Notes: a model not told the origin generated them from the letters alone. Positions 1,158 to 36,453 are shown, counted from the first letter of the stretch. The stretch is DNA of 36,791 bases from Gonapodya sp. JEL0774 (GCA_027604505.1 JADIIX010000180.1:1-36791), one strand, 5' to 3'. Numbers and translations are program-made.

Positions 1158-1470
1158 ATGGCTGAAGACCAAGTTCAGCTGATGGAGCAGCTTGGTGAGT
1201 TGCTCAAGCAGCGATGTCGCAAGACTTCAGACTCTCAATTTCGCAACAGGCTTCTACCAGTTCTACCTCGTATCGCACGACCGCGGCGCTCGCACTGCCC
1301 ACCGTCTCTGTATCGACTACCCAGACCGTGTCATCAAAGTTGCCTTCCTCGACATCGTTCCGACCTTGCACATGTTCGAGACAATGACGATGAGGGAGGC
1401 GCTCGGATACCATCACTGGCTCTCCCTCGCGCAGCCGTATGATTATGTGGAAAAACTCATACTGGCAGGC
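1158..1470 (+). pseudogene. Internal fragment of a haloacetate/fluoroacetate-dehalogenase-like alpha/beta hydrolase with one intron (1195-1249)
   Basis: Removing GTGAGT...CAACAG (55 nt, phase 1) gives MAEDQVQLMEQLGFYQFYLVSHDRGARTAHRLCIDYPDRVIKVAFLDIVPT...YHHWLSLAQP. This contains the (G/S)HDRG nucleophile elbow and the YxHW motif of this family. The N- and C-terminal parts are not visible. Confidence 0.7.
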
Positions 1471-1603
1471 CAGAACGGGTTGTTGTGGTGGCGCGAGTGG
1501 GTTCTCTATGCATATTAAGAGTTCGGGCCTTCCCGCGCTTTCCTTGACTTTCCACCCCTTTAGCCACGTCGCATGGTCCAAGAAGTTCTCCACCGCCACC
1601 GAC

Positions 1604-1950
1604 CGTCAAAGAGCTTTCTGTTCAAGATTGCGAGGACGTGATTCCGTCCCACAAACTGTTTGTTCCTCGAAAACGGAATGTAGTAGTGGGGCGGCGAGGA
1701 GCCAGGATTCGCATCAACTCTGGATTGAAAAGCACTGATGACATTCATGATATTGCAGTGGTCACAGGTACAGAAAGTAAGCACGCGGAGCCGTGAATGG
1801 TGGAGCTTACCTCGAGCCTTGGTTGTTAGAGTTGCCGATGTGAACGCGGTCACCTTCAATGTGCTGGGAGTGTATTATTATGTTGGTGACGTTCCTCGTC
1901 GGTGCAAGAGAATTTGGAAAGGTTTGTTGTCCATCATGGGTGGTCAGCAT
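1604..1950 (-). pseudogene. Truncated paralog (copy 1) of the amyloid-motif NLR: exon 1 1950-1811, intron 1810-1735, exon 2 broken off near 1604
   Basis: Colinear with 11080-11414. The spliced product is MLTTHDGQQTFPNSLAPTRNVTNIIIHSQHIEGDRVHIGNSNNQGSSAFQSRVDANPGSSPPHYYIPFSRNKQFVGRNHVLAILNRKLFD. Homology stops before Walker A. Confidence 0.85.
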
Positions 1951-2444
1951 GGGACGGATGGTTGGGACTGGGAGGGGGTTGGGTGGTGCCAGAGCGGGAA
2001 GACAAGGATTTGTTGGGGAATTCAAAAGGCGCACGGTCCACACAAGAGCAGAATGGCCGAACCAACAAGGATCAATTGGTTGCTGTCGTTTGGAGTCCTT
2101 GCAATAGGTCACGCGACTGAACCTGCCTGAGGGTGTCAGGTGCCACAGCAACTTTGACCACCGCAAGTACAACGGAGCAAACTGGACAGAACAACTTCAG
2201 TCGCCAGAGGATTATTATCACCCTCCTTTTTCACCTCCCAAACACTCATGGCAGAGGTTTTCGGGATCGTCTCGAGCGCTGTCAGTATCGCCGCCACCTT
2301 CAGCACCTGTCACGAATGCTTCAACTACGTCCAAATCGATCGCCGCTTCGGCGAGGACATCCAAAAGGAAACGCTGAACTTCGCGTTGGGGTGAGGGTGT
2401 CCACATCTACGACAAAGGCGGTCCAAATACCAGCACCTGCTCCG
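1604..2444. repeat. Direct duplication of the NLR 5' end / intergenic / het-S 5' end block (partner 11080-11982)
   Basis: Clear colinear nucleotide similarity, e.g. CACGGTCCACACAAGAGCAGAATGGCCGAACCAACAAGGATCAAT in both copies. Confidence 0.9.
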
Positions 2445-3121
2445 AAGGCGCCGATGAAGTGGCCCTTGCAGAGAGCACGCTTTATCAGATCCTCGTGCCA
2501 ATGGCGGTCTCTGAGAAAGTGTAGCACAAGTACAAGTATGAAGCCGTCCCCGTCGAGGACAAGTGTTCGGATGCGAAACCAAATGATTGAGCTTGCAACG
2601 CGTCGTCAGAACAATGCCCCTCTGCGAACGTTAGCTTCATGGGCACTGTACGACATGGGCACTTTAGCAAGCTGGTGGAAGGCGCAATAACGTTGCTCGA
2701 CAATCTTGGGCATGTATTTCCCGCACCGCCGGACCACGTGACAAGGCTCGTGATCGAGGACGCCAAGGCTGTGGACGAGTTTTGCCACTGACGCCATTGC
2801 TGGGGTACCAGGTGGGCAATCTCAGGATCCTCAAGTGGCACAGATACTGAGGCTGGTGCAAGATCTGGCTGAGAAGGTGGACGAGCCTCTTAACAAAGAG
2901 TTCGGTAGCGGGGCGGCAAGGAAGGGGGTGCATATAGAGAATACAGAGGTTGTGGACAATGCAAAGATGCGCTTATGCATATTTTTGGTAGAGACTGGCA
3001 AGGTCAGGCTGTACTACCGCAAGGTAAGTCCAGTATAGACATTGGAAAATAACGGGCTGGGGGCAATGCGAAGGCTCACGTCGGAGAGAGTTTTGCTGAT
3101 GAGGACACCTTCTGGAATTGG
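2248..3121 (+). pseudogene. het-S: het-S/het-s homolog (HeLo domain plus two-repeat prion-forming domain), full-length but with several frameshifts and stops
   Basis: Reading across frameshifts: MAEVFGIVSSAVSIAATFSTCHECFNYVQIDRRFGEDIQ...SRWGEGVHIYD...ELATRRQNNAPLRTLASWALYD...SKLVEGAITLLDNLGHVFP...GVHIENTEVVDNAKMRL...SIDIGK*RAGGNAKAHVGESFADEDTFWN. This is colinear with Podospora HET-s as recalled (MSEPFGIVAGAL...LSRWGEAV...RRQK...AWALYD...R1...R2...GFWDN). Lesions: 23-nt deletion near 2379 relative to copy 2, TAG 2522-2524, frameshifts near 2565, 2660, 2780 and 2976, TAA 3050-3052. Confidence 0.88.
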
Positions 3122-4909: not shown

Positions 4910-5393
4910 AATGATGACCCCCCAGAAACCCCTCACAGGCCACATCATGTGCAGAATTCAAAATCGTGCGGTGCAGGTGGTGGGTACTTCACATATAAAG
5001 GTGTTGGATCTTGAAGATCACTCTGCAGTTCGCTGTTCCGAACGTATTTCTCCATCGCTTCTTGCCCTTCAGTATTCGCCCCTCAATCTCACCTGTGGAC
5101 AACATTCCTCACGACGATCCGGTGGACACGGCCGAGAACGCTGAGGCCGAGGTGGCGAGCGAGGTGAGCGAGAGGGACGAGAGGAGGGAGGCCGAGGGGA
5201 AGCGGGTCGAGGTGGTGGCTTGGATTGGGAACGCCGGGGTCTGCATCATTTGAGAACGAGGAATCGGTTGGGTGAGTCGTACGCACCCACCAACAACCCT
5301 ATGCAACTCTCCAACTTACGCTTTGGTCGTCCAACTCCACCAACTCCATGCCTCATGCCCCCCCTTCCCTCCTCCCCCTCGGCAAGGGATGCG
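4910..5393. repeat. Internally deleted third copy of the ~5-kb duplicated block
   Basis: 4921-5094 matches ~12800-13050/29065-29320 (CCCAGAAACCCCT; TTCACATATAAAGG-GTTGGATCTT). It is joined directly to 5095-5393, which matches ~32530-32830/16050-16480 (GACGATCCGGTGGACACGGCCGAGA). Confidence 0.8.
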
Positions 5394-6935
5394 ACCAAAG
5401 GGATTTTAAGGGATTTCAGGGGTTTCAGGGGTGGAAAGGGGAGAAATGGGGGAGAAACGCGAGGGAGGGCCTTTTTGGCCCGCGACCGCGGGCGTGGCCT
5501 CAGCACGCACTCACTCCATCAATCCCATCGATCACTCCCAACCTCTATTAACAATTGATTCCATTCTCACGCAGCGGCATCCGCACAGCCACAGATCGCC
5601 GCTTAAAAGAAGGATTGTTTCTCCCCTGTCGCCAGCCGTTCCAATCCCCGATTCCGCCCAATTCCCACCACCATTTGTGGTCAAATAGGTGTAGCTGTCC
5701 CAACCGCCACATCTCCGAAATTCTGTACTTAACTACGCTATATTTTGATGCCATTTATGGTTCTGCAAGGGGTGCGGAGGTACACCGACGGCCGAAATCC
5801 GATGAACAAGGAAGGTATTCTGAGTAAGTCCTCCGTGCGCGTTTGATCTCGATTTTCTTGTCGCTCATTCCTCTTCCACGTGTGAGGCGTTTGTGTCGCC
5901 CAGATGCACCCCTCATCATCAACGGCATCCCCACCCGACGGCTCTCAATGGGGAGCGTCAAGGAGGCTGTCAATGTCGTGGGCTGGATTGCCACAGTTCT
6001 GGACAAGGGAACAAGCTGGGATGAAGGATTGCTGATGGCGCCATAATCTCGTTTATTTCATTTTTGAAGGTCATATGGATCAAATACCAGAGAGCGAAAC
6101 GGGAAACCCTGCGAATTGCGAAGCCATCAAGGTATGTAGTTCAATATGTTGATTTTCCTTTGGAAAACGTCCAGAGCACGCATTTTGCGATTTGCGCAGG
6201 AACTTTGGAGGCGCATTGACAAAGACTACCCAGAGGATGGTGGTGTGGAGCGCCATGCCGCCTCTGCACGGACAGATCACAAACGGCCCACAAGTCACGG
6301 CATTTCTAGACTCCACAGATTGTTTGAGTAGCTACGCACTCATATGCGCAAGTAGATTTGCTCGGGCCCTCCCTGAATAAAGAAAGTTATCCCCGTGAAA
6401 CAAACCCCCGGAGATGCGTCATGATCCATTTGGGAAACGGCTGCTTTTCAGTATACTCACACATTTTCTCATAGTATCGGAAACCGTTGCGTTTCTGAAG
6501 AATTGACCCTGGGCGGTGTTGGTGTGTTTGTCGTCTCAGGTCTTGGCAGGTTTGCCCTGGACTAAGACAACAGGAAAGACACAACCGTCCATACTCGATC
6601 CATTCAAATACGACGTGATTGTCTCTGTATTCAACTCTCTTCGCGGAAACCCGACGAGAAAGAGGCCTTAACGTCACCCTCCGGAGTACCACCGTGCAAT
6701 GGCCTCGGGAGAGCTTTCACTTCGCGCCGCCCTCTGGCTTTCGATCCTGTTCTCGATTGTTGCTGCACTTGTCGCGGTGAATTTTGCTCCTCAAACGCAC
6801 TTGATTGTTTGAACGGGCTGCTGTCCTAGACGCGGGCGGCCCATTACCACACCTCGACCCTGCAAGTAATGTTGAGAATGGATGGAAGCTTGCAGAATCG
6901 CGCGGAAGGGGTGTGCTACCTTTGCACATCATAAT

Positions 6936-7412
6936 ATTGCAATGCTCAATTATTTGTGCGCGCCAGGATTTGCAGGTCTGTAGGATAATTCCTTTTATAG
7001 CAGTCCAACAACACTCTCCATGACTCACATCTATAGTAATGCCACTACCTCATAATTATGTTCATGGTGTATGTTACGTTACATCGTTTACTCTCGCCAT
7101 TTCAAAGATGATGGAGATCTCCAAGGTGAGCAGGGAACAGCAGCAGTTCCATGCAAGGGGCTGGTTAACAAGGAAAGATCACGTGACAAGAAACTGCGCT
7201 ACCAACTTCACAATGTCACTTGAGCCCTCCCTAATTATAATAATAATAATCCCAACTTATCCTGTTATCCTATTATCCTGTCACCCTTCACCTTTTGTTC
7301 TCTTGTGCCTTCGCTACACAAGCCTCCACACAAACACCAAACTGAAAACAAAGAAAACAAAACAAAACGAACCACCCTACAAACGAACAAAAACTATGAA
7401 GTTCGAGCTTCT
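6936..7412. repeat. 3' flank of the LRR array, duplicated at 34031-34498
   Basis: Both copies start ATTGCAATGCTCAATTATTTGTGCGCGCCAGGATTTGCAGG and remain colinear up to the terminal LRR exon. Confidence 0.9.
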
Positions 7413-10400
7413 TCACACCTCAATTGTGCGTCGAGTATTGGAAAGTGCCTTGAATGCTCTTTTACCAGCGTTATCTATGGAGTTCCCTGGAGGAGTGAGA
7501 GGAGAGAGAAGAGAATAGACCATGTGTGTGTGTGTGTATGACTCAGCGACTCTGAGCGAGAGGTCACACTCTGATACTCACCACTGACATTGAGCAACGT
7601 CAAGGTGGAGTTGCTCTTGAGGGCCTCAGCAAGCGCTCTGGCGCCAGCGTCGCCGATCTCGTTGGCTGGACGATGGCGAGAGGAGAGAGGAGAGAAGAGA
7701 CCATGTGTGGGTGTGTGAGTGACTCAGCGACTCTGAGCGAAAGGGAGGCCACACTCTGATACTCACATTCGACATCGAGCAACGTCAAGGTGGAGTTGGT
7801 CTTGAGGACCTCAGAAAGCGCTCTGGCGCCAGCATCACCGATCGAGTTGTCTGGAGTCGAGAGAGGAGAGAGAGACGAAGGATAGGAGAGAGGAGAGAGG
7901 AGACCGTGAGGGTGTGTGTGACTCTGCGAGTCTAAGTGAGAGTGAGCGGGAGGTCACACTCTGATGCTCACAATGAAGGTTAAGTGACGTCACGGTGGAG
8001 TTGGTCTTGAGGGCCTCAGCAAGCGCTCTGGCGCCAGCGTCACCGATGGAGTTGTCTGGAGTCGAGAGAGGAGAGAGGAGACCGTGAGGGTGTGTGTGAC
8101 TCTGCGAGTCTGAGTGAGAGGGAGCGGGAGGTCACACTCTGATACTCACAATGAAGGTTAAGTGACGTCACGGTGGAGTTGGTCTTGAGGACCTCAGCAA
8201 GCGCTCTGGCGCCAGCCTCACCGATCGAATTGGCTGGAGTCGAGAGAGGAGAGAGGAGACGGAGTGTGTGTTCATGTGTGTGACTGAGACTCAGCAACTC
8301 TTGAGCGAGAGGGAGCAGGAAATCACACTCTGATACTCACCACCGACATTGAGCGACGTCAAGGTGAAGTTGGTCTTGAGGGCCTCAGCAAGCGCTCTGG
8401 CGCCAGCCTCACCGAGCGAGTTCCCTGGAGTCAAGAGTGCAGAGAGAGGAGAGAGGAGACGGAGTGTGTGTTCATGTGTGTGACTGAGACTCAGCAACTC
8501 TGAAGTAAGAGCGAGAGGGAGGTCACACTCTGATACTCACTAGTAAGGTTGAGCGACGTCAAGGTGGAGTTGGTCTTGAGGGCCGCAGCAAGCGCTCTGC
8601 CGCCAGCATCACCGATCGAGTTCCCTGGAGTCAAGAGTGCAGAGAGAGGAGAGAGGAGACGGAGTGGGTGTTCATGTGTGTGTGGGGGTGACTCAGCGAC
8701 TCTGAAGCAAGAGCGAGAGGGAGCAGGAAATCACACTCTGAGATTCACTTTCGACATGGAGCGACGTCAAGGTGGAGTTGGTCTTGAGGGCCTCAGCAAG
8801 TGCTCTGCCGCCAGTCTCACCGATCGAGTTCACTGGAGTCAAGGGAGGAGAGAGAAGAGAGGAGACGGTAGGGGTGTTTGTGTGTGTGTGTGTGACTCAG
8901 TGACTCTGGAGCAAGAGCGAGCTCGAGGTCAAACTCTAATACTCACTATAAAGGTTGAGCGACGTCAAAGTGGAGTTGGTCTTGAGGGCCTCAGCAAGCG
9001 CTCTGCCGCCTGCCTCACCGATCGAGTTCCCTGTGGGTTCGGGTCGGCCGGGGTGGTGGTAAAATCATACGATCCAAGACACTTTAACATCACTATGCAT
9101 AACTCGCCATTAGCCTTGCTGGACTCACCCGTCAACGTTAGGGTCCGGACGGCACTATTGTTTTTGAGCGCGTGGGCGATCGCCCTTGCTCCAGCATCTC
9201 CAATTGACTTCCCTTTGGTGGAGGGACGACAGTTGGAGGAGGGGGAACAGGTAAGAAGGGAGTAGAGCGTCCATGTTTCGCGACTACTTGGTGAGAGTTG
9301 AAACCCGCAAATTGAGACACAACTCACACGACAGATCAGGCTTGGTTTCGTTGTTGGCTATGTCCTGCAGCACCTTGGTTAAAGCCCCTGCCCCGGTTCT
9401 TTCTGTGTTTCCGAAATCTTTAGCTAGTAGGTTCGCGATTGTGAAGGCTTCGCGTTAGTACCAAGTGATTTGGGTGGTGTATGCCAACTCACCCCATCTC
9501 CATGTCCCCAGGTCTTTCTCCGATAAAATTCTGGCAGGATCGTTTTTCGGCAGCGTCTTTACCCGGATATGGTGGACACTTTCCAGCAGGGTTTGTGCTA
9601 GTTTTTGCTGCCCTTGGGAATAGTACGCTCTTGCGAGTGCGTGCTGGGCCGCCAGCAGATCCGGATGGTCTTTTGATAGGACTCCTTTCCGAGCAGCAAC
9701 AACAAGCTCCAGCGTGTTCACTGCCTTGTCTACTTGTCCGGTATACTCGTATGCGAGGGCGAGCTCTTGCTGCGCCTCTAGCAGAGGAATGTCCTCTTGG
9801 GTAGAGGTTGGATGTAGAAGACGTCTGAATGTTCTATCCAGTTGGGCAAGCCAACCTCTCGCCAGTTGTTGTCTTCCAAAGACACATGCTTGAAGCCATA
9901 GAGCTGCTTCTGCGAATCTTCCGTCGGAGTTCAAGCACCGCCCAACCTGAAGACAGAGGTCGTATCTCGGTTCCAGCTCCATTCCTTCGCCACTTCCCAG
10001 TACCTTCACGGCGTGCGGGAGGTACTCCCTCCATCGCTCTCGATTGTCCCACTCGTTGGTTGGAAATATTGAGCTGATGTGTGTGATTGCCTCTTCCATC
10101 TTTTTCGACGCAAAGCGCTGGGTGCACAGCCAGTCCCATGCCGCCAGGTGCACAAGACGGTGGAGATCATACACTTCATCCTCTCTGTTGGTTTCCTCTG
10201 AGCGACGTGACACAAATGCGTACCCGATGAGGGTATTGATCGCTCCTTCCATTTTCACGGCACTCCCGGCGGTGGGCAGGATGGTTCGAGGGATGGACTT
10301 CCATTCAATACACGCCATGAAGGCCAAGATGTTTGCCGAGAGAGGATTTTCTTGATTGATCTGCTTGAACGAGACCACCCACGTTTTGGCCACTGCATTT

Positions 10401-11414
10401 TGGGATTCCTCGTAATGTGTTCGGTCACGGAAGTCTTCGCTTAGCAGTTCCATCTTATTTTCTTCCAGCAGTTCCCGATACCTTTTGATTGTAATTGCAT
10501 TAATATTCAGGTACGCTGCTGCTTGGGCGATTGCAAGCGGAAGGTTTGTGAGTTCCTTGAGGAGTTTCGCAGTGTTCAACTGATCCTCGAGCAATACTTT
10601 TCGTGTGAGGGACTTCTTAAACAACTCTGCCGCCTCCTGTCCACTCATCGCTTGCATATTGATGGTATCAACACCTGCGAGGTCCACTCCGACCTTCTGA
10701 GGGCGGGTTGTGAACAGTGTGAGTCCTTGTTCGCTCTGTGGAAGGTAGTAATCAATACCTCGTCCCTGCTTGGGGTGAAACACTACTTCTGCATCGTCGG
10801 CATTGTCTACGATCAAGAGCCACCGTCCGGCTGCGTCCTCGCTCAAATATCGCTTGACAACCTCCTTTATGTCTTCTGTTGCCCCTGTCGTAAGAGAGAT
10901 GCCAACTTTAATAGCCACCTCCTTGCACGCCTGCTCAAAGCTCTCCATGCTGAGTGCAGGAAACCAGAAGATTGAGTAGTCTTGATGTGTCCCCTTCACT
11001 CTGTACGCAAACTCGAGTGCAACTTGTGTCTTTCCCACTCCACCGAGTCCCACAAGAGCTGCCCTCTGACAATCCTCATCGTCAAAAAGTTTTCTGTTCA
11101 AGGTCGCGAGGACGTGATCCCGCCCCACAAACTGTTTGTTCCTTGAAAAGGGAATGTAGTAGTGGGGACGGGAGGAGCCGGGATTCGCATCAACTCTTGA
11201 TTGGGAAGCACTGATGACATTCATGATATTGCAGCGGTCACAGGTACGGAAAGGAAGCATGCGGACCCTTGAATGGTGGAGCTTACCTCGAGCCTTGGTT
11301 GTAAGAATTGCCGATCTGAGCGCGGCCACCTTCAATATGCTGGGAGTGTATTGTTATGTTGGTGACGTTACTCGTCGGTGCAAGCGAATTTGGAAAGGTT
11401 GTATCTCCCAGCAT
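7413..11414 (-). CDS. NLR/STAND protein: N-terminal HET-s-like amyloid motif - NB-ARC - TPR - RI-type LRR array; 13 exons: 11414-11287, 11210-9493, 9423-9328, 9212-9129, 9030-8947, 8832-8749, 8624-8541, 8424-8341, 8233-8150, 8055-7972, 7850-7767, 7665-7582, 7486-7413 (923 aa)
   Basis: Walker A GLGGVGKT, Walker B WLLIVDNAD, NLPLA, LHRLV, and kinesin-light-chain-like TPRs (LAAQHALARAYYSQGQ). All 12 introns are GT-AG and keep the frame; the exons sum to 2772 nt = 924 codons with no internal stop. Intron 9492-9424 has a GTGAGT donor, a perfect TACTAAC branch point (9460-9454) and a TAG acceptor. Confidence 0.85.
7582..9212 (-). repeat. Tandem exon-intron array: nine 84-nt phase-1 exons, each one 28-aa LRR (consensus xNSIGxAGARALAEALKTNSTLTxLxLx)
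   Basis: Each exon measures exactly 84 nt between an AG acceptor and a GTGAGT/GTGAGC/GTGAAT donor. Introns are 94-124 nt, mostly similar to each other, with CT- and CA-rich tracts on the minus strand. Confidence 0.93.
11301..11360 (-). other. Putative R0 amyloid signalling motif of the NLR (NITIHSQHIEGGRAQIGNSY)
   Basis: Alternating hydrophobic pattern and terminal [RK]-x-[QH]-[IV]-G-[NE] match the PFD repeats of the neighbouring het-S homolog. The motif is conserved in copy 1 (1884-1825, NIIIHSQHIEGDRVHIGNSN). Confidence 0.7.
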
Positions 11415-11708
11415 GGGACCGATGGGATTGGGACTGGGACGGGGGTTGGGAGGTGCCAGAGAGGGAAGACAAGGATTTGTTGGGGAATTGAAAAGGCGCA
11501 CGGTCCACACAAGAGCAGAATGGCCGAACCAACAAGGATCAATGGTTTGGAGTCCTTGGAAAGGGTCACGCGACAGGAAACCTTGCTTCGGCCAGGCCTT
11601 GGGTGGCACAGCCACTATGGCACCCCCCCATCTAGCAGAGCAAACTGGACAGAACAACTTCAATCACCAGAGGATTATTATCGCCCTCCGTTTTCACCTC
11701 CCACACTC
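11415..11708. promoter_or_regulatory. Probable bidirectional promoter between the divergent NLR and het-S-like genes (also 1951-2247)
   Basis: A ~295-bp spacer between the divergent start codons, conserved in both copies. No specific motif identified. Confidence 0.4.
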
Positions 11709-11982
11709 GTGGCAGAGGTTTTCGGGATCGTCTGTGGCGCTGTCAGTATCGCCGCTACCTTCAGCACCTGTCACAAATGCTTCAACTACGTCCAAGTCGG
11801 TCGCGGTTTCGACAAGGACATCCAAACGGAGACGCTCAACCTCGCATTGCTCAGTCGCGGTTTCGACAAGGACATCCAAACGGAGACGCTCAACCTCGCA
11901 TTGCTCAAGCTTCGCCTTTCGCGTTGGGGTGAGGCTGTCCACATTTACGACAAAGGCGGTTCAAATTTCAGTACGGGCTCCG
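11709..11982 (+). pseudogene. het-S: het-S homolog copy 2: HeLo N-terminal stub, start codon ATG->GTG, internal 54-bp tandem duplication, truncated
   Basis: (V)AEVFGIVCGAVSIAATFSTCHKCFNYVQVGRGFDKDIQTETLNLALL-SRGFDKDIQTETLNLALL-KLRLSRWGEAVHIYDK. Homology to copy 1 ends near 11982. Confidence 0.88.
11800..11907 (+). repeat. Perfect 54-bp tandem duplication (11800-11853, 11854-11907)
   Basis: GTCGCGGTTTCGACAAGGACATCCAAACGGAGACGCTCAACCTCGCATTGCTCA twice. Confidence 0.95.
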
Positions 11983-12355
11983 CAAAGCTGTTGGAGAGAC
12001 TGAACTTTTGATGCTATGTTTCGGCTCACGAAAGGGGTCAGCTGAGAGGAAAGACGTGCACGTAGTGAACGATTCACATATGGAAAGCGGAAGAGCCCAC
12101 GTCAACACTGCGTACATAAGAGGAAAGAAGATAAAGCAGAATGTGGAGCTGTTGGACATTAAACAACCACCGAGATTGGCTCACAAGAGCCCAAAGTGCA
12201 CGCACGAATGATACTGAGATCTCTGCGAGATACAGACTGGCCACCAAGGTTCGTAAACTACAATTACTATCCGAGATCAAGCACCCGATCGGTACGAAAA
12301 CACCATCCCGCCCCTCCTGGACTTCTCCTCCATCGGGTGAATTTTGTGTGCGAAG

Positions 12356-15300
12356 GCGTCGGGACCTCATTGGAGCGGAGGGAGTTGTGCGGAGACACTA
12401 TGCGATCGGGGTCGGTAGGATGTGGGAAGTAAGAGTAAACGGGCGAGTGGGATGAACGAATGGGGGACTTGGGACGCGCACTACTCCTTGTAAGATCCTC
12501 ACTTTATCCTTCTTGCTTGACATCTTCTCCTTCCTCCATTTTGTCGTCGAAGGGAGTGAGAAAGTTGCTGTGCATTGTCACAGAGGTGAACAGACAATGC
12601 AGACGTCGGTTTTTGGTAGGGGGTAGGGGCCGCAGGGGAAGCGGGGAGCAGGTGCAGACGGACTTTACTTCTTGTTCCACGTATACCATGCTACGTCTGC
12701 TCTCTCCCATTGCACTGCATTTTCCATCTCATGTTTCCTTCCCACCTCCCCACTTCTCCACTCAGACCATTGCCGTGCGTCCCGGAATCACTGATTACCT
12801 CCCAGAAACCCCTGATAAGCCGTATCATTATTCTGTGTAACTAGCCCAAGTATCCTACCAGATGTATCTGCCCTGGAGTCTGCCGGGAGGAGGATAGATG
12901 GGATGCAAAGTGCGGAATTGAAAACGGTGCGGGGTGGTGGGTATTTCACATATAAAGGCGTTGGATCTTCAAGATCACTTGGCAGTCGGCTGTTCTGAAC
13001 GTATTTCTCCACCGCTTCTTGCCCTTCAACATTCCACCCTCAATATTACCTGCTGAAGCCTACAACACACCCCTGTCAGTGAATAAACTGGGACTGGGGT
13101 CCCTGGTACTTACTTATCCTTCTCGGCATCCAGTCCCGGATGACTAGTGCAGCCTCCACCATTCCTACGACTGACCTGCTCACATTGTTGCCAATAAATT
13201 CGGCACCTGCGGCTGCATGACGCCAGTCCTCAATGATCCAACCACCTTACCGCTGGACTTCGGGTACCCCCACCTGCACACTAAATTCATGATACATTAC
13301 TGATTGATTATGCTGTGGGAAGGAGGGCGACGTTGGTGCCCATGAACAGAAGAGATAAGTTTCAATGACTGCCGAAATTGAAAGAATGAAGAATCGCGGA
13401 TATTGGATGAATCAAGAACGGCTTTAAATAAGCGAGGATGAAGAGAGTGTGAACAGAGTGTGCGAAAGACGGAAAGGGAGGTCCTGAACTTCTTCATTAC
13501 ACAAGAGCGAAATCCCTAAACGGCAATCATGTATTGTTTGCCTTTCATCTCCTGATTTATTCCCTGATTTCACTGAAGACAGCAAAGAAGAAGGCCACCC
13601 CTTGTGACCATGATCCAGTGACAGTCACTCCACTTGGCCACACTGATGGCAGTCAGTCCAGATGAACTCGACCAGCAAGAAAAACATATAAATGTACGAA
13701 CCAGAATAGATAGGAATAGATATCCAGATACATTCACCACCCTCGCGTTCCAATGGTGATCCTCTGATTGAGCAACCAGCATGCCTTACGCATCCACCAT
13801 CGGAGGCCACCAGCGTACACTAATAAAATTAATGTATCACCAGGGCATTGACCGACTATATGAAGCAGAGTCCTGCTAGCCTCATCAAGTGGATACTTGT
13901 CAGCTGCTGGCCATCGTTGGGTGTCAGCTGAGGGCACATCACCCTATCCCGGATGACGTGCTCTCAAACGACATTGCCCACTCTTCAAGCAACCGAAAGC
14001 TATCGAAACTCATCCCTCTTGTGAATGAGTGTTCGAACACCGGAAAGCTCAACTCCGCCCCATACCAAAGGATAGGGTGATATGCTCTCAAAGGACAAAA
14101 CCCCATCACAAAAGATGGTGTGATATGTTCTGAAGTGACAATGCCCACTCTTCAAGCAAGGCAACGCATGCTGTTGGGACTCATCAGTCCCGCTGGCTGA
14201 GCGCCTGTGCCCCCCCACGCCGACGCAGCCGTAATAACGGAAGTGGCCTGACTATCAACCGGACTCGGGTCTCTCTTGATGGCGAAACTTGTTGGCGAGA
14301 CTTGTCCCCGACCAGTCACCACAGCTCAGTGAGAATCCAGATGGTGATGTAGCGGTACGGACGAGGTGTGGTGTTGCCCGTTGGAGAGGGGTCGTGGGAG
14401 CGAGGGAGGAAGGGCGAGAAGAGAGAACTGGTGGGGGTCGGCTCGCGCGGACGTGATGTGGGATGTGCTTCGGTGGGGGAACATATCACTGGACGATGAA
14501 TGACACGACGACGTGCCCAAACGGCTGCGGGGAACTCACCAGCCGCCCCATCCTCCACCTCCTCCAGCTTGACGTCATCCCGTCCAGAAGATCAAGCCCT
14601 CCACCCTCCTTGTTCGATTCAGACTCGGCCACGAACCCCAAGAGCGAAGAGTCCAGCGAAGGGAATGGAAGAACGGTGAGCGCACCTGATACGGGGAACG
14701 GTGTTGGTCGGTGGAGCGGATGTTCGACATAGTCCCTGTCAGGATAAGTAAGTGTAGAATCTAAAAACATATCGGAGCAAAGAAAGCAACGCGGGAAAAT
14801 GAGTACTTCCAAAATCAGGTGTCAGCACAACAAGAACAGTCGCACGTACCATCGTCCTACGACTCCCTCCTTGTCCCTGACCACACCATGACGGAGTACC
14901 CACATGCCCATTCCCCGTTCCGCTGGCTTTGCTCTCATCCACCCCATCCTGCTCCATCATGTTCACACTCCCGTTACTCCCTGCTCCCCTGTTCGTGCTC
15001 TGCTTCCTCCCCGTCAACTTCGCAAACGTCCACTGAAGGAAGTTCCGTTTCGGGGGAGTACAATGCCCGGGATTGGAGGTGGAGGCGGCTGTGGGTGGCA
15101 CAGTTGTCGCCGATTGTGATGCTGCTCCAGCTCCCGACACCCCGGACAATTCCAACTCAGTCCGTCCAGTGTCCACACCGGCATCACCCTCCACACTTCT
15201 CTCCCCATCGCTCAACCTCGGACTCGGACGCGTCTTAGCCTCCGCAGTCTCCCCCGCTCACTCCATCTCACCCACTGGCCTTCTGCCGCTTGACCCCGCT

Positions 15301-17443
15301 CTCGTTCCACCCAGCCCCGAACCCCATCACCATCGTCAACGACATGGAACTGAAAGTGGACACTCCGAGCCCCAGCGTCCCGTACTCGCACGGACCATGA
15401 TGTTCCACTTGGTATGGTTCTGCAGGGACGTGGTCCGTCTCGGCATCGTGGCCGTGTCTTGGGGACCATCGCTGTTGCTCTGGGGGTGGTCGGCGCACTG
15501 GATGTGGACGTGCGCGATGGAGACGGCTACGGTTGTTTCAAATGCCCCGAAGCGCGGTCGGCGGTACGGGATCGGGGAGGGCAGTCTGACACCCCGCAGC
15601 CCGTGACCACTTGTGGGAGTAGGCGCTGACGCCACGGAGGCGTGCGACTCCTTGAACCGGCAGGGTTCGAGCTTGTTGAGGAGGGACTCGAGGATGGTGG
15701 TGCGAGCGGCGGTCGGGGTTTGTGCCGGACTGGGCGGCGTGGGTGTCTCCAGGCGTCAGTGTCAGTGTGAGATCGTCCACCCTGGCCAACTCCGCTTTAT
15801 CGTCGTCATCGTCCGTCGTGGTGGACTCCGACTTCGTGTCACTGCTCGCCACGTTGGCCATCTGCACCAACACCACCTGTACCAAACTGCTGAGCTGGTG
15901 CTGTGGTGCCGCTCCCCCACCTCCAACACCCGACACCGTCGACGCAGACACAATCGACACAGGCTTTCTGATCACGTTCCCGCCGCCGCCACTGTCGCAA
16001 TGGTGACCATTGGGGCCGCTAGGGGGAACCTCGCTCCTGTGATCGTGTCTGTGTACGACGCACCCGACGGCGACGAGCCTGGCACACGCGATCGTGTCTG
16101 TGTACGACACACCCGACTACGACGAGCTTGTCGACATGGTCGAGAACGATGGACGACGACGAGCTTGTGCACACGGCCGAGGACGCTGAGGCCGTGGTGG
16201 CGAGCGAGGTGAGCGAGTGGGACGAGAGGAGGGAGGCGGAGGGGAAGCGGGTCCAGGTGTTGGAAGCGGGTCCTGGTGGTGGAAGCGGGTCGAGGTGGTG
16301 GCTTGGGTCAGGGACGCCGGGTCTGCATCATTTGAGGATGAGGAATCGGTTGGGTAAGTCGTACACATCCACCACCAACCTGACGCAGCCCACCAACTTA
16401 CGCGTGGTCGTCCAACTCCCTGCCTCATCCCCCCAATTTCGTGCCCATCCTTCCCCCTCCCCCCTCCGCAGGGGATGCGGCGGGTCAGGTGGTGACGGTG
16501 ATGAGTATGAACGGGACGTCGAAGGAGGAGGTGGTGGCGGTTAGGAAGGAGACGACGGATGTGGTGGGCCGAGGTTGGGGGAGGTGGGAGGTGGTCGGTG
16601 TACTTGGCGGCACGAAGTACGGAAGCGCCGAAGCGCCGCCGACATGTTGGACGCCAGGAACCCGGGTCATTCCGATCCACAGGATGAGATGAGCTGGTCC
16701 CTGTCCCTATCCACCACAACCGCGGCGCCTGCCGGGGTGGACAACGACTTTCCTTGTTTTAGCAACCTCAGTTCCATCATGGCCATGCTCTAAAGGTTCG
16801 GACAACGATGGGAGGAGTACACGAGTGCTTTGGGTGGGGACAGCAGTACGCGGTGTTTGGGGTGTGGAGTGCGAGGTGGCTCGAGGACAGTGGTGTGGAT
16901 TCCGAGTGAGTGCACCAGGACAGGCAGGCGAGCGGGCAGCTGACATGTTGTATATTGAGCCATGACTGGCACCTGACATGTTGGATATTGAGCGATGAGC
17001 GGAGTCGGCCAAAAGTGGTGGTGGCTTTGGTAGCGGTGAGGGACGGAGGATTGGACGAGTGGGAACAGCTGCCCTTTCCGGACGAGTCGTGCCAGCGGTG
17101 GCGGGTGTGGGAGTGGGATGCAATGGGTGCGCCGGTTGGGTCGGTTTTGGGTCGGGGTTGATGATGCAACCCAATGAGGCGGGATCGGAAGTATGGTTGG
17201 AACAAGGCCACAGAGTGCAGAGTGCAGGAAGTCCAAACTCACGGAGCGATTCACGAGTGCGAGTTGCATGTACCAGAAGATGCCCGAGTCAAATACGAAC
17301 AGGCGTCTGCAGAGGAATAAGGGAGCGTTCGCACATGAAGCACCTCGGCATGTCCACATGCCAGCAAATGCTTACCAACAATCATAAGCCCCACGGAGTG
17401 AAGCGGCAACCGCCTCTACAGTCAGTCATTGGCGCACGCTTCA
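12356..17443. repeat. ~5-kb segmental duplication, copy A
   Basis: Starts GCGTCGGGACCTCATTGGAGCGGAGGG and ends CTACAGTCAGTCATT-GCGCACGCTTCA, as in 28631-33808. The first ~2 kb are nearly identical and the distal part is more diverged. Confidence 0.92.
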
Positions 17444-19503: not shown

Positions 19504-22408
19504 ATGTCGGACGGGCGTGCCGGAGGTGATCCCTGAACACAGTGTTTCTCCGGATCACACTTGTCAACTTACCATCCACACCCCTCTACAACTCCAGATG
19601 GCTCCAAGGCAAGACGCCTGCGTTCCGACGAGTATACCGTTGGGTGGATATGCGCTCTGCCGACGGAGCTCGCGGCTGCCCGGGCAATGTTTGATGAGGA
19701 ATACCAACCACTCGACCGGGACATGAGGGACCCGAACATCTACTCTTTCGGACGGATGGGGGTTCACAATGTTGTCGTCGCTTGTCTTCCGGCCGGAAAT
19801 CGCGGGACAAACTCTGCCGCAGCGGTTGCGAACAACCTCGGCCGGACTTTCGATTCCCTCCAGTTCGGCCTCATGGTGGGCATCGGAGGCGGCGTTCCCA
19901 GCCCAGAAGCAGACATTCGTCTGGGAGACGTAGTTGTCAGTCAGCCCTTTGAAACCTACGGCGGCGTGGTGCAATACGACTTCGGGGAACACACTTGGGA
20001 GGGGTTCCGGCGAACGGGATATCTCAACAGTCCGCCGCGTTTGCTTCTCAATGCCGTTAGCCAACTTCAAGCCAATCATCTTGCTGGAGATATCCGCCTC
20101 GCGGAACACCTTGAGAAGCTTAGACGGCTTCCAGTCTTCCATCGCGAGAGTGCCGGTCCAGACATCTTATTCCATCCCACATACAATCACAAACGAGGGC
20201 TTTGGTGCGAATCGTGTAGAGTCGATATGCAGCTCCCTCGTCCCGCTCGATCTCATGTAGAGCCCGTGGTTCACTACGGTTTGATTGCATCCGGAAACCA
20301 GGACATGAAGGATGGGGTGCAGCGGGACAGGGTCAGCAAAGAGCTCGGAGGAGTCCTGTGTTTTGAAATGGAAGCGGCAGGACTTATGAATCATTTCCCA
20401 TGCCTCATCATCCGTGGTATCTCCGACTATGCGGACTCACACAAAAACACCAGGTGGCAAGGGTATTCAGCAGGCACAGCTGCAGCATGTGCCAAGGAAC
20501 TCCTGTTGATGATACCAAGGACTGATCCGGGAACACGAGGTACGCGCCTCTATTTTGCTGTCGTGCCTCGCACTGTATCATCCTTATCTGTTGTAACTAA
20601 ACTGATCACATCCTCACGGTCATTGATTCAACAGCCTACATCCCTTTTCCACGGAATCCCCGTTTTGTGGGCCGCACATCACAGCTCCAACAGCTGGCAC
20701 AGAAGCTGCTGCACAACGAGGAATGCCGGCAGATGGCGCTCGTCGGTCTCGGCGGAGTCGGGAAGACTCAAGTCGCTCTGGAGTTTGCTTACCAAGTGAA
20801 GCAAGAGCATGCCGAGAGAGGGCGCTCTGTGTTTTGGTTGCCCGCAGTCAGCATGGAAAGTTTCGAACAAGCATGCAGGGAAATTGCAAGAACACTGGGC
20901 ATACCTTCGGAAAAGGATGATGACATCAAGGTAGTGGTCAAGCAGCATCTGAGTACGAAGAAAGCCGGTGTCTGGCTCATCATCCTCGACAACGCAGACG
21001 ACATCGGGCTTCTGACTGGTTCCAAGGGATCTTGGGGTATTTTACACTACCTTCCGCAGAGCGAGGATGGGCTCTCTGTGTATACAACCCGCACTCGAGA
21101 TGTTCCCTTGTCACTTGGAGTGGCCAATGTTATTGATGTGGACGCCATGGACAAACAGGAAGCAAAAGAACTACTTCAAATGTCCCTCATGCGCAAGGAG
21201 CTGCTCAACGACGATGCAAGCGTGGACAAATTCCTGGACGAACTTACATATCTTCCATTGGCACTCTCTCAGGCAGCAGCATATCTCAACAAAATCGAGA
21301 AAATCTCTATTGCAGATTATCTCGGCATGCTGCAAAGCACACAGGTGGCCGACGTGCTGAGCAGGGAATTCGTCAACATCCAGCGTTACTCAGGATCGAG
21401 CAATGCTGTGGCAACAACGTGGCTGGTTTCATTCAACCAGATCCGCACAAACGATCTTCTAGCAGGGGATCTTCTGGCATTTATGTCGTGTATCGAGTCT
21501 AAGGCGATCCCTCGAGCTATCTTGCCTGCGTTGGAGTCAAGATTCAAAATGGAAGATGCTATTGGCACCCTTACTGACTACGCCTTTGTGTCGCCTCGGA
21601 AGGACCAGGACATGTACGACCTCCACCGGTTGGTGCATCTTGCGGCTGGAGACTGGCTCCGCATACAGGGCCTCACGGCAGAAAAGACAAGAGAAGCAAT
21701 CCAGCATATCGCGACAATTTTTCACACAGACAATTGGGACCAGAGGAATGTGTGGAGGGCGTACATCCCGCACGCCGTGAAAGTGCTGGGGAGCAGCGAA
21801 GGCAAGGAATTGGCGGAACGATACGAGCTTTGCCTGTGGATCGGGCGATGCTTGCAGACGGATGGCAGAGTGCCAGAAGCCGTGATGTGGCTCCAGAAAT
21901 GCGACATCGGAAGACGGGACGAGTTGAAACTGGCCAAGTACCACCCGGACCGTCTCACCTCGCAACTCAACCTCGCTTACGCATAGCAGGCAAACGGGCA
22001 GGTGGGCAAGGCCGTCACGCTACTGGAGCACGTCGTCGCCGTCCGTGAGCGAGTTTTGGCCGAGGACCACCCGGACCGTCCCGCCTCCCAGAACAACCTC
22101 GCTTCCGCGTACCAGGCCAATGGGCAGGTGGGCAAGGCCGTCACGCTGCTGGAGCACGTCGTCGAGTCCATGAGCAGGTTTTGGCTGAGGACCACCCGTC
22201 CCGTCTCACCTCGCAGGCCAGCCTCGCATACGTCAAACAGGCCATGGCGGGGGCGGCTCTCTCGGCAGAAGCGGGTGCGGTCAATGGTGGTGAGGATGCA
22301 CGGCATGGGAGTGTGAGGTCCACAGTGGGTGGTAGTGGAAGCCAAGTGGCGTCGGCGCCCACTTGGTGGCGGACCATCACCACATCGGAAGAAGAGCAAG
22401 AGGAGTGA
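19504..22408 (+). pseudogene. PNP_UDP (purine/uridine phosphorylase-like) - NB-ARC - TPR NLR; exons 19504-19525, 19598-20539, 20635-22408; nonsense codon at 21984-21986 and 1-nt deletion near 22165 in the TPR tail
   Basis: PNP_UDP motifs YTVGWICALPTE, LMVGIGGGVP, GDVVVS, CFEMEAAGL, IRGISDYADSHKN. Intron 20540-20634 restores AYIPFPRNPRFVGR. GLGGVGKT, WLIILDNAD, YLPLA, LHRLV follow. The first exon is less certain (GTGATC donor). It may still express a C-terminally truncated protein. Confidence 0.88.
21942..22235 (+). repeat. 126-bp (42-aa) TPR tandem repeats with high internal identity
   Basis: CACCCG (HP) anchors at 21942, 22068 and 22193 (spacing 126, then 125). QANGQVGKAVTLLEHVV occurs twice. 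Confidence 0.85.
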
Positions 22409-34498: not shown

Positions 34499-35149
34499 TC
34501 AATTGTTCGTCGAGCATTTGCTCTTAAGTGCCTTGAACGCGATTCTCCCAGCGTCACCGATCGAGTTCCCTAGAGTCAAAGTAGAGGAGAGAGTGGAGAG
34601 GAGAGAGGAACCGGTGGGTGAGTGTGTATGCGACTTTTGTCTCTGAGAGGGAGGTCACACGCTGATACTCACAACTGACATCGAGCGACATCAAGGAGGA
34701 GTTGGTCTTGAGGGCCTCAGCAAGCGCTCTGGCGCCAGCCTCACCGATACAGTTGCCTGGAGTTGAAGTAGAGGAGAGAGGAGACGGAGTGTGTGTTCAT
34801 GTGTGTGTGACTCAGCGACTCTGAGCAAGAGCGAGCTCGAGGTCACACTCTGATACTCACTATAAAGGTTGAGCGACGTCAAGGTAGAGTTGGTCTTGAG
34901 GACCTCAGCAAACGCTGTCGCGCCAGCCTCACCGATCGAATTGTCTGTAGTAGTAAAGGAGAGCAGAAGAGGGACGAGAGAGGAGAGAGGAGACCGTGGT
35001 TACGGGGTGTGTGTGAGAGACTCTGCGCCTCTGGAGCGAGAGTGAGCCAGAAATCAAACTCTGATACTCACTATAAAGGTTGAGCGACGTCAAGGTGGAG
35101 TTGGTCTTGAGGGCCTCAGCAAGCGCTCTGGCGGCATCGTCACTGATCG
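34499..35149 (-). pseudogene. Orphan 3' fragment of a paralogous LRR array: partial exon 35149-35072, 84-nt exons 34944-34861 and 34756-34673, terminal exon 34569-34499
   Basis: Same LRR consensus (NSIGEAGATAFAEVLKTNSTLTSLNLY; NCIGEAGARALAEALKTNSSLMSLDVS) and the same splice sites and 3' flank as 7413-9212. The most upstream exon lacks its acceptor, and no NB-ARC lies upstream within the window. Confidence 0.85.
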
Positions 35150-36453
35150 TGATTCAAAGTGTCCTGGGATGTTCATTAGGTTTTGCCTGAGGTGAGATGT
35201 CTCCGATCATTCCAGGTACAGAATGCAATACGCATTATCATCTACGCTGGATGTGATGCATGAGTTGCTTGCAAGATGTTGATTATTTCCTCCTGACAAA
35301 GTCGATTTGTTGTGTGAGAACTGAGATGGGTCCGTTCCGGTATTCCAGGATCCGTGACGAAATTGTGTTCTCTGACAAGGCACTGCAATTAGTGATTAAG
35401 CATGCCGAGTTCATTGGAGCTGAATATTGAGGTAGGATGGTGGGCTGGTCCCTGTCCCTCTTCGATGAATGGGATCACTGGATCCCCATATCCTTTCTAT
35501 CTGCCATTGAGGAAGGATTCCAATGGTCGCCAGTGTCCATCTCCAGGGAAGAACACGAGAATGTTGGGAGGTGGAATAGATTCAGACTCTGGGTTTCCAT
35601 GTTGGACAAATCACGCAGTAGCTGATCATTGTCCATTCCTCGACACAATATTAACTCTCCGTCTTCTCCCTTTTACACTTCCCTCCCTGTCCATGTCTGA
35701 TTCCAGATACAGTCTTGTGCTGTAGTCCCAGAGGGGGTGAGATGGGAAATATGGCAGTGCCGTTATGGTAGGATGATCCATCTGCTTGTTACGCCAAACA
35801 GCTAGCGGGCAGGGTTCGACTCTTGGACTACATCTTGTCGTTGTAAGCGCAGAGAGAGAGTCTGAGACTCTTAATCTGTAGAAACAATCGATGCGCGGAC
35901 GTCAAGAGATTGGTAGAATCAAAAAGCTTATAAGAATAGATATAGACTCTTAATTTTCTTCTCTATTTTCCTCGCCTTCGCATAGAATGTTCCATGAACG
36001 TAAATCGGCAAATCCATTCTACCGAATGTTCAACAAGGTCGGTCGAGTGCACTGACACTTGTATTCATCACGTTCGAGATTGGCATTCCGAGAATGTAGC
36101 GAACCCTGACCTCCTGACCTTTTCAATAGAAATCGAGACGGACTCGAAGTGGGAGACTGGGGCGAGAATGGCAGTTTCTCCCAGAAAGATGGTGAATCCG
36201 GGCAACTAATGGTTGGACACCACATCAGTGTCTTACCTGCCCTCCGGTCCCTCGTGATTGGCAACCGAATGTCGTAAAACATGGTATTATGTTTCCGACG
36301 GTAGGATGTTGACTGAACGCGGTACGGAAGGCTCGGGACATATTTGGTAGTGTACCCTACACGGTTTTCGGGTAAAGACCCCCGACGATATTGTCTCAGA
36401 TGACCTCGAAAGGGAGGTCACTAAGAGGAAAGGGGGTTCTCCGGCCGATGGTC

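What the first reader, a model, noticed from the sequence alone, without database searches (positions are those of the whole stretch)
7486..9423. One LRR per symmetric exon: potential combinatorial receptor diversification, with the variable residue built at the splice junction
Seen: all LRR exons are 84 nt and phase 1/1. The helical part (GxAGARALAEALKTNST) is nearly invariant, while the beta-strand ends differ: TLTLTG, SLNLYM, SLHVER, SLNLTR, SLNVGA, SLNLHY, SLNLHY, LLDVES, LLNVSG. The last residue of each is a split codon (1 nt upstream + 2 nt downstream). Exon starts are only GG, TG, CC or AC, so no exon-skipping combination creates a stop, and skipping would create new residues next to the LxLxxN surface. 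Established: vertebrate NOD/NLRC genes also encode RI-type LRRs on 84-nt exons, and the concave beta-face is the usual ligand surface. Inference: skipping or shuffling of exons could generate a repertoire of specificities from one locus.
Basis: partly seen in the sequence, partly recalled or inferred. Interest (0 to 1): 0.78.

Follow-up and report, generated by a model that had tools for sequence, protein, structure and literature searches.

The report
Fungal NLR with fast-evolving LRR exons
An early-branching fungus carries a predicted immune-receptor gene whose leucine-rich sensor, a part that fungal receptors are reported to lack, is laid out one repeat per exon; the two residues at each exon joint change far faster than neutral DNA and likely tune what it recognises, while mixing of the exons by RNA splicing is untested.

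Summary
Nine 84-nt, phase-1 exons each encode one ribonuclease-inhibitor-type LRR, and the nine junction residues are as listed. They are the 3' end of a predicted 13-exon, 923-aa gene of Gonapodya sp. JEL0774 (Monoblepharomycota): short amyloid-like leader, NB-ARC, two to three TPRs, cap, LRRs. Two paralogous NCBI models have the same NB-ARC-TPR-LRR fusion. Papers read state that fungal NLRs lack LRRs. The NB-ARC-TPR part most resembles ascomycete NLRs; transfer is not proven (AU p = 0.45). Among the repeats only the two codons before the conserved Asn, one of them the split codon, show dN/dS far above 1 (7-48, Bonferroni p < 0.0005). The repeats are mosaic (p = 0.006) and vary in number between paralogs. 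Diversification by point change plus DNA-level shuffling is supported. Exon skipping is untested, and the absence of stop codons is expected by chance (0.39). One repeat per exon is known from vertebrate NOD/NLRC and brown-algal ROCO genes. This scan noted similar fungal LRR-exon NLRs earlier in other genomes (unchecked notes), and one Mortierellaceae NACHT-LRR record exists, so this is not the only fungal NB-LRR candidate.

The parts
11287..11414 (-). Exon 1 (predicted): ATG and a 42-residue leader with one HET-s-like amyloid-motif candidate
   Evidence: no Pfam hit; similarity to HeLo tail not significant
9493..11210 (-). Exon 2: NB-ARC (P-loop, Walker B and downstream motifs present) followed by two to three TPRs
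   Evidence: Pfam NB-ARC 40.1 bits against cut-off 23.5; TPR_12 and TPR_10 above cut-off; 100% match to NCBI model P0001
9424..9492 (-). Intron 2 (69 nt, phase 1): GTGAGT donor, TACTAAC branch-like site, CTAG acceptor, in-frame stop; joins TPR to LRR. The NCBI model P0001 reads into it and stops
   Evidence: no ATG in this intron or the next exon
9328..9423 (-). 96-nt exon: N-cap helix and first beta-strand of the LRR solenoid
   Evidence: helix 65-80 and strand 85-87 in the model of paralog P0004
9129..9212 (-). LRR exon 1 (84 nt, divergent)
7582..9030 (-). LRR exons 2-9: eight homogeneous 84-nt phase-1 exons with similar introns; codons 27 and 28 (x7 and split x8 of LxxLxLxxN) under diversifying selection
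7413..7486 (-). Terminal exon: last partial repeat and stop
   Evidence: same ending as paralog P0004
11709..12011 (+). Broken HeLo gene, head-to-head with the NLR (GTG in place of ATG, internal duplication, early stop)
   Evidence: Pfam HeLo E 2e-17
1599..3120 (.). Second, broken copy of the pair: NLR 5' end (minus, about 1599-1938) and HeLo gene (plus, 2248-3120) whose tail has two HET-s-like repeats and an aromatic end, disrupted by frameshift and stop
   Evidence: 85% identical to 11080-11849
34500..35155 (-). Orphan LRR array B: one 5'-truncated exon, two intact 84-nt exons (34944-34861, 34756-34673) and an altered terminal exon from 34569; no NB-ARC upstream; 3' flank 86% identical to that of array A

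Best explanation
The exons are the predicted sensor end of a fungal NLR-type receptor (NB-ARC-TPR-LRR) that likely recognises a fast-changing foreign or modified-self ligand, and its specificity is likely varied over generations by selected point changes at the two codons flanking each splice junction and by DNA recombination between the similar exon-intron units. Shown: exon layout, open 923-aa spliced frame, domain content, RI-type fold in a paralog's model, dN/dS far above 1 at x7/x8, mosaic repeats, different repeat numbers between paralogs. Inferred: that intron 2 is spliced so NB-ARC and LRR are one protein; that an LRR module with its own N-cap was added behind a shortened TPR array within the Gonapodya lineage; that ligand binding switches NB-ARC to oligomerise; that the N-terminal motif once templated a HeLo cell-death protein (both HeLo genes in the window are now broken). 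Because the intron splits x8, any in-frame exchange of units also rewrites x8. Exon skipping would do the same but is not needed to explain the data.
For: Open reading frame across 12 GT-AG introns. The spliced product aligns without a break to NCBI models P0002 (86% over 687 columns) and P0004 (73% over 783), both NB-ARC-TPR-LRR_6 by Pfam; P0003 and P0077 run on into the cap or first LRR. No ATG lies between the NB-ARC donor and the first LRR exon. The LRR model (pLDDT 82-99 over residues 81-240) matches NOD2 (rmsd 1.4 A over 161 columns), NLRP1 and ribonuclease inhibitor. pN is 0.73 and 0.87 at x7 and x8, against 0.09 in the 23 framework codons, pS 0.14 and intron distance 0.20. ML omega is 3.9-4.6 for the five exposed x positions named from the motif (p < 1e-5) and 10-13 for x7 alone. 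Only codons 27 and 28 of 28 pass Bonferroni. Among 20 informative sites 51 of 190 pairs are incompatible and neighbours are more compatible than permuted order, p = 0.006. The LRR-less PNP_UDP-NLR of the same window is sister to the LRR-bearing clade, support 86/96.
Against: No transcript was examined, and the paralog models are predictions too. The NCBI model of this very gene stops inside intron 2. Only 8-10 repeats were tested, with my own codon model; recombination can inflate omega, and part of the x8 signal may come from shuffling. x7/x8 also vary in other LRRs of this class, so variation there is not unique to this gene. The amyloid motif has no Pfam or PDB match and no significant similarity to the HeLo tail (p = 0.09-0.12). 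Both HeLo genes are broken. 0 of 80 related metagenomic loci had a HeLo neighbour (many are short). The full-length model is weak across the TPR-LRR joint (pLDDT under 50 at 600-666, with few aligned rows there).
Confidence: 0.66

Rival explanations
1. One reading: regulated or stochastic exon skipping (or somatic recombination) makes many LRR isoforms from this one locus within an individual, with new junction residues.
For: All LRR exons are symmetric; 33 of 45 skips change x8 and none gives a stop. Skipping of LRR exons is documented in human NLRs and Ectocarpus ROCO genes; Tuber NLRs vary by micro-exon splicing (as cited).
Against: Stop-free starts are expected by chance (0.39). Introns are short (94-124 nt) and 8 of the 9 LRR-exon donors or close variants fit the GTGAGT consensus (7 exact). 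Retention outnumbers skipping in a non-animal opisthokont, 3927 events against 211 genes. Symmetry follows from tandem duplication of one unit and needs no splicing function.
Confidence: 0.14
2. The NB-ARC-TPR gene ends in the 69-nt segment as NCBI models it, or mainly does so by intron retention, and the LRR exons are a separate or decaying unit.
For: P0001 stops there. The segment is a multiple of 3 with an in-frame stop. The window is rich in broken duplicates, including an orphan LRR array.
Against: Consensus donor, branch-like site and acceptor; no start codon for the LRR exons; the frame stays open over 11 downstream exons; the same TPR-to-cap continuity appears in P0002, P0003 and P0004.
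Confidence: 0.1
3. The variation at x7/x8 is a neutral by-product (relaxed constraint, a mutation hotspot or conversion-tract ends at the exon border), and the protein is not a ligand-diversifying receptor.
For: These positions face solvent and vary in other RI-type LRRs; few repeats; recombination is present.
Against: They vary much more than introns and third positions: 4 of 4 focal columns have 3 or more states against 11 of 106 neutral columns, p = 2e-4 (focal columns picked after inspection). The third base of x7 has only two states and the adjacent splice signals are conserved. The result holds with a 1.5-fold faster neutral clock.
Confidence: 0.07
4. The contig is not Gonapodya DNA but a co-assembled contaminant such as an ascomycete.
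For: All 30 organism-named non-Gonapodya hits to the NB-ARC-TPR part are Pezizomycotina. The five family members lie on short contigs of 9.8-40 kb. No housekeeping gene on this contig was tested.
Against: Five models on five contigs of the same assembly form a family diverged to 58% identity. No named Dikarya protein is among the 120 best LRR hits. 0 of 80 related metagenomic loci carry LRR exons (43 hold at least 1 kb downstream).
Confidence: 0.03

Closest known systems
Fungal NB-ARC-TPR NLRs of Pezizomycotina (Dyrka 2014, PMC4986451; passages read)
   Same: NB-ARC of the same family (42-52% identity over about 420 residues to named ascomycete proteins), TPRs behind it, highly similar repeats, positive selection and repeat-number variation in the sensor.
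   Different: The TPR array is cut to two or three units and followed by an RI-type LRR; that paper and a 2025 review (PMC12881547, passages) report no LRR in fungal NLRs. The repeats sit on separate exons. The host is a monoblepharid.
Vertebrate NOD1/NOD2/NLRC genes (Hoss 2019, PMC6642158; section 6 read)
   Same: One 28-residue RI-type LRR per frame-preserving exon with the border in the beta-sheet; same fold.
   Different: NB-ARC instead of NACHT, an intervening TPR segment, repeats and introns about 80-95% alike, and strong diversifying selection between repeats. Whether intron phase and position are identical to NOD2 was not tested.
Brown-algal ROCO LRR and NB-ARC-TPR genes (Zambounis 2012, PMC3341825; Teng 2024, PMC11378527; passages read)
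   Same: One repeat per exon, exon shuffling, positive selection on the concave face, non-coding spare LRR exons, gene birth and death.
   Different: There 72-nt phase-2 exons of 24-residue LRRs on a ROC-COR GTPase, with isoform data. Here 84-nt phase-1 exons on NB-ARC-TPR, no antisense intronic exons, and no isoform data.
HET-S/NWD2 amyloid signalling pairs (HRAM; Daskalov 2015, PMC4518210; passages read)
   Same: NLR with a short N-terminal motif encoded next to a HeLo gene whose tail has two repeats and an aromatic end.
   Different: The leader fits the HRAM pattern only with a one-residue gap and not significantly; both HeLo genes are broken.
Mortierellaceae RI-type LRR proteins, including NACHT-LRR KAG9061042.1 of Linnemannia hyalina (database record)
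   Same: Same 28-residue repeat type (59 of the 120 best LRR hits by my count); one of them joins it to a NACHT domain above Pfam cut-off.
   Different: NACHT, no TPR, a different fungal phylum; exon structure and gene model not examined.

Membership tests
NLR / STAND receptor (tripartite) | Central NB-ARC or NACHT domain with intact P-loop | tested here: met
   NB-ARC 40.1 bits against cut-off 23.5; P-loop and Walker B visible
NLR / STAND receptor (tripartite) | C-terminal superstructure-forming repeats on the same polypeptide | tested here: met
   TPRs lie in the NB-ARC exon. The LRR fusion is met at gene-model level only; no RNA examined
NLR / STAND receptor (tripartite) | N-terminal signalling or effector element | tested here: inconclusive
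   42-residue leader next to a HeLo gene; no Pfam hit, shuffle p 0.09-0.12
NLR / STAND receptor (tripartite) | Ligand-triggered oligomerisation and immune or cell-death output | not testable with these tools
   needs experiment
RI-like (LRR_6) leucine-rich repeat | 28-residue repeat with LxxLxLxxN and alpha/beta horseshoe fold | tested here: met
   LRR_6 79.5 bits on paralog P0004; model and Foldseek matches to NOD2, NLRP1, RI
Vertebrate NOD/NLRC (NACHT-LRR) | NACHT domain | tested here: not met
   NB-ARC; no NACHT hit for this protein at E 0.05
Vertebrate NOD/NLRC (NACHT-LRR) | One 28-residue LRR per frame-preserving exon | tested here: met
Exon-shuffling receptors of brown algae | Repeat exons reshuffled at DNA level | tested here: met
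   mosaic repeats p = 0.006; repeat number differs between paralogs; isolates not compared
Exon-shuffling receptors of brown algae | Positive selection on exposed strand positions | tested here: met
Exon-shuffling receptors of brown algae | Alternatively spliced repeat isoforms | not testable with these tools
   no sequencing run could be laid on the locus
Exon-shuffling receptors of brown algae | Spare repeat exons in introns or on the opposite strand | tested here: not met
   all 13 profile hits in the window are minus-strand exons of arrays A and B; array B is a separate orphan copy
HET-s-related amyloid motif (HRAM) pair | HeLo gene adjacent to the NLR gene | tested here: met
   Pfam HeLo at 11721 and 2248, both head-to-head with an NLR start; both broken
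HET-s-related amyloid motif (HRAM) pair | Shared motif: one copy on the NLR, two on HeLo (G19, R/K15, hydrophobic 5, 8, 10, 16, 18) | tested here: inconclusive
   pattern; HeLo second repeat fits at 5, 10, 15, 16, 18, 19 by eye; leader fits the C-terminal half; not significant
Horizontally acquired ascomycete NLR | Nested inside Ascomycota with support | tested here: inconclusive
   Gonapodya clade sits in an unresolved fork with ascomycete clades; ascomycete monophyly not rejected, p-AU 0.446

The most novel reading that the evidence does not exclude
A monoblepharid fungus independently built an NB-ARC-LRR immune receptor by grafting an exon-modular LRR onto an ascomycete-derived NLR, and uses the array as a live diversity generator: exon skipping or recombination among array A, paralogs and orphan cassettes yields many sensors per individual, with a ligand-contact residue written at each new splice junction.
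Probability: 0.14. Interest if true: 0.88.

Novelty: new variant of a known kind. Interest (0 to 1): 0.62.

Why it matters
Surveys and reviews state that the NB-LRR layout of plant and animal immune receptors is absent from fungi (PMC4986451, PMC5658179, PMC12881547; passages read). A small, young family of NB-ARC-TPR-LRR genes in one fungus would be a further independent origin of that layout, caught with the older TPR sensor still partly in place. The selection signal narrows the likely binding site to two codons per repeat, one of them split by the intron, which makes specificity swaps and the skipping hypothesis directly testable with one amplicon experiment.

Tried and rejected
Sequencing runs: none was listed for 7250-11450, so no reads were laid; this says nothing about expression. 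No whole genome is held, so no genome-wide exon census. The profile search of protein representatives never ran because the queue was full, so fusions outside the length limits remain unsearched. Prokaryote genome scan found no relative; plasmid tblastn gave 104 records, the 15 listed at 27-29% identity, four used as outgroup. An exact 27-nt exon motif had 0 matches in metagenome contigs. The TPR-cap-LRR1 junction matched only P0002 and P0004 among 98 candidates. Single 27-residue exons are mostly too short for Pfam (1 of 4 hit weakly). Pfam and PDB searches of the amyloid candidates were blank. Rejected: 'no stop codons implies selection for skipping' (chance 0.39); 'first fungal NB-LRR' (a Mortierellaceae NACHT-LRR record exists, and earlier scan notes describe others); 'transfer from Ascomycota shown'. 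The LRR donor could not be identified: hit order follows repeat number and atlas neighbours are mixed rotifer, Mucoromycota and ciliate clusters. No complex prediction was run, as no binding partner is claimed.

Full report
Observation. On the minus strand nine exons of exactly 84 nt lie between 9212 and 7582, each bounded by AG and GT, with introns of 94-124 nt that resemble each other. Each encodes 27 full codons plus a split codon. The interval also holds a 96-nt exon (9423-9328) and the last exon (7486-7413). Of 45 possible skips, 33 change the junction residue, 18 give a residue not in the native set, and none gives a stop. The last point carries little weight: four start dinucleotides avoid the three stop-forming ones with probability 0.39.

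The gene. Upstream lies a long exon (11210-9493) with NB-ARC and TPR domains above Pfam cut-offs, and a short first exon (11414-11287). Joining all 13 exons at GT-AG sites gives an open frame of 923 residues. The NB-ARC-TPR part is identical to an NCBI model from Gonapodya sp. JEL0774 on a 36,791-base contig, a monoblepharid fungus. That model stops inside the 69-nt intron 2. Two paralogous models, P0002 and P0004, carry NB-ARC, TPR and LRR_6 on one chain and align to my spliced product without a break (86% over 687 and 73% over 783 columns). P0003 and P0077 run on into the cap or first repeat. Intron 2 has a consensus donor, a TACTAAC site and an acceptor, and neither it nor the cap exon has an ATG. 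The fusion is therefore well supported as a gene model but not shown in RNA.

Structure. A model of the C-terminal 253 residues of P0004 has pLDDT 82-99 over the LRR and matches NOD2, NLRP1 and ribonuclease inhibitor. The 96-nt exon supplies a capping helix and the first strand. The two variable residues (x7 and x8 of LxxLxLxxN) follow the short strand directly, at the rim of the concave face. That this rim binds ligands in ribonuclease inhibitor is recalled, not tested. The full-length model is unreliable at the TPR-LRR joint.

Selection. Among the eight homogeneous repeats pN is 0.73 at x7 and 0.87 at x8, against 0.09 in the 23 framework codons; pS there is 0.14 and intron distance 0.20. A codon model on ten repeats (eight of array A, two of array B) gives omega 3.9-4.6 for the five exposed positions named from the motif (p < 1e-5) and 10-13 for x7 alone, on both an ML tree and a star tree. 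With branch lengths fixed from introns, only codons 27 and 28 of 28 pass Bonferroni, also with a 1.5-fold faster clock. A tree-free count agrees: 4 of 4 focal columns have three or more bases against 11 of 106 neutral columns (focal columns chosen after inspection). Limits: few sequences, my own implementation, and recombination. The divergent first exon and the truncated first exon of array B were left out.

Shuffling. With the selected codons removed, 51 of 190 pairs of informative sites are incompatible and nearby sites are more compatible than chance (p = 0.006), so units are mosaic. P0004 has four homogeneous repeats against eight here, and x7/x8 pairs differ throughout. Array B (35155-34500) shares an 86% identical 3' flank but lacks an NB-ARC gene, and its second exon resembles A2 and A6 (89%) more than its positional partner A8 (82%). 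It could serve as a conversion donor; that is inference.

Skipping. Not tested. Precedents exist in human NLRs (Hoss 2019, section 6) and Ectocarpus ROCO genes (Teng 2024, passages). Against it: short introns, donors at or near consensus (7 of 9 exactly GTGAGT), and dominance of retention in a non-animal opisthokont (PMC4739763, passages). Symmetric exons follow from duplication of one unit.

Origin. All 30 organism-named non-Gonapodya rows among the 120 listed NB-ARC-TPR hits are Pezizomycotina; only P0002 and P0004 show an LRR family in the printed lists, a few of which were cut off. Bacterial relatives reach about 28%. In a 32-row tree (22 ascomycete, 6 Gonapodya, 4 bacterial; eight named ascomycete rows and all unnamed rows left out) the five LRR-family genes form a clade (100/99), with the window's LRR-less PNP_UDP-NLR as sister (86/96). 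Nesting within Ascomycota is unresolved (p-AU 0.446), so transfer is a hypothesis. None of 80 related metagenomic loci carries LRR exons or a HeLo neighbour; 43 hold at least 1 kb downstream, and the window served as positive control. The repeat type is shared with Mortierellaceae, animals and Capsaspora.

Output arm. A HeLo gene lies head-to-head with the NLR, and a second copy of the pair lies at 1599-3120. This is the HET-S/NWD2 arrangement (PMC9815663 and PMC4518210, passages). The leader and the HeLo tail fit the HET-s-related pattern in part, but not significantly, and both HeLo genes are broken. Whether an intact partner exists elsewhere in the genome could not be checked.

Literature. 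Dyrka 2014, Uehling 2017 and a 2025 review say fungal NLRs lack LRRs (passages); a 2023 review says 'predominantly other repeats'. Bonometti 2025 allowed LRRs in a 122-proteome screen that included G. prolifera JEL478, and the section read reports no LRR class; supplement files 1-12 had no 'LRR', files 13-17 were not searched and may bear on this. Searches listed no paper describing LRR-bearing NLRs in Gonapodya or other early-diverging fungi; subscription journals are mostly not covered. Zambounis 2012, Ciach 2024 and PMC13449251 were read as passages. Soanes and Talbot 2010, Iotti 2012 and Urbach and Ausubel 2017 were seen only as citations. One Linnemannia record joins NACHT to 11 LRR_6 stretches. 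Earlier notes of this scan describe 84-nt phase-1 LRR exons on NLR-like and kinase genes in other fungal genomes (unchecked); none was found for this genome or this sequence.

Verdict. A real, apparently intact NB-ARC-TPR-LRR gene with exon-modular repeats and sharply localised diversifying selection. It works like the brown-algal and vertebrate exon-modular receptors and belongs by descent to the fungal NB-ARC-TPR family. The mechanism type is known; the architecture in a fungus and the selected split codon are, as far as my searches reach, undescribed. New variant of a known kind, interest 0.62.

Noticed in passing
window 23276-23995 (-): ORF whose nearest atlas clusters are resolvase / serine-recombinase N-terminal domains (score 0.91); Pfam scan of 23276-23896 was blank. 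Unusual in a fungal contig full of duplicated segments; may belong to a mobile element.
   Followed up: partly
window 19537-22316 (+): Second NLR, PNP_UDP-NB-ARC-TPR, in three ORF pieces; sister to the LRR-bearing clade; no LRR exon behind it.
   Followed up: partly
window 12352-15584 and 28627-31855; 16155-17443 and 32545-33808; 5093-5394: Segmental duplicates at 80-88% identity without a recognised gene; pieces recur between the NLR and array B.
   Followed up: no
window 9424-9492 (-): Intron 2 is a multiple of 3 with an in-frame stop; retention would give an LRR-less NB-ARC-TPR protein, a possible two-state switch.
   Followed up: no
window 1183-1515 (+): Fragment of an alpha/beta hydrolase (Pfam E 1e-4) that runs into the truncated NLR copy.
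   Followed up: no
P0216 (KAG9061042.1) and Mortierellaceae hits: A Linnemannia hyalina NACHT-LRR model, and many 800-1300-residue Mortierellaceae proteins with the same LRR type behind an N-terminal region without a clear Pfam family.
   Followed up: partly
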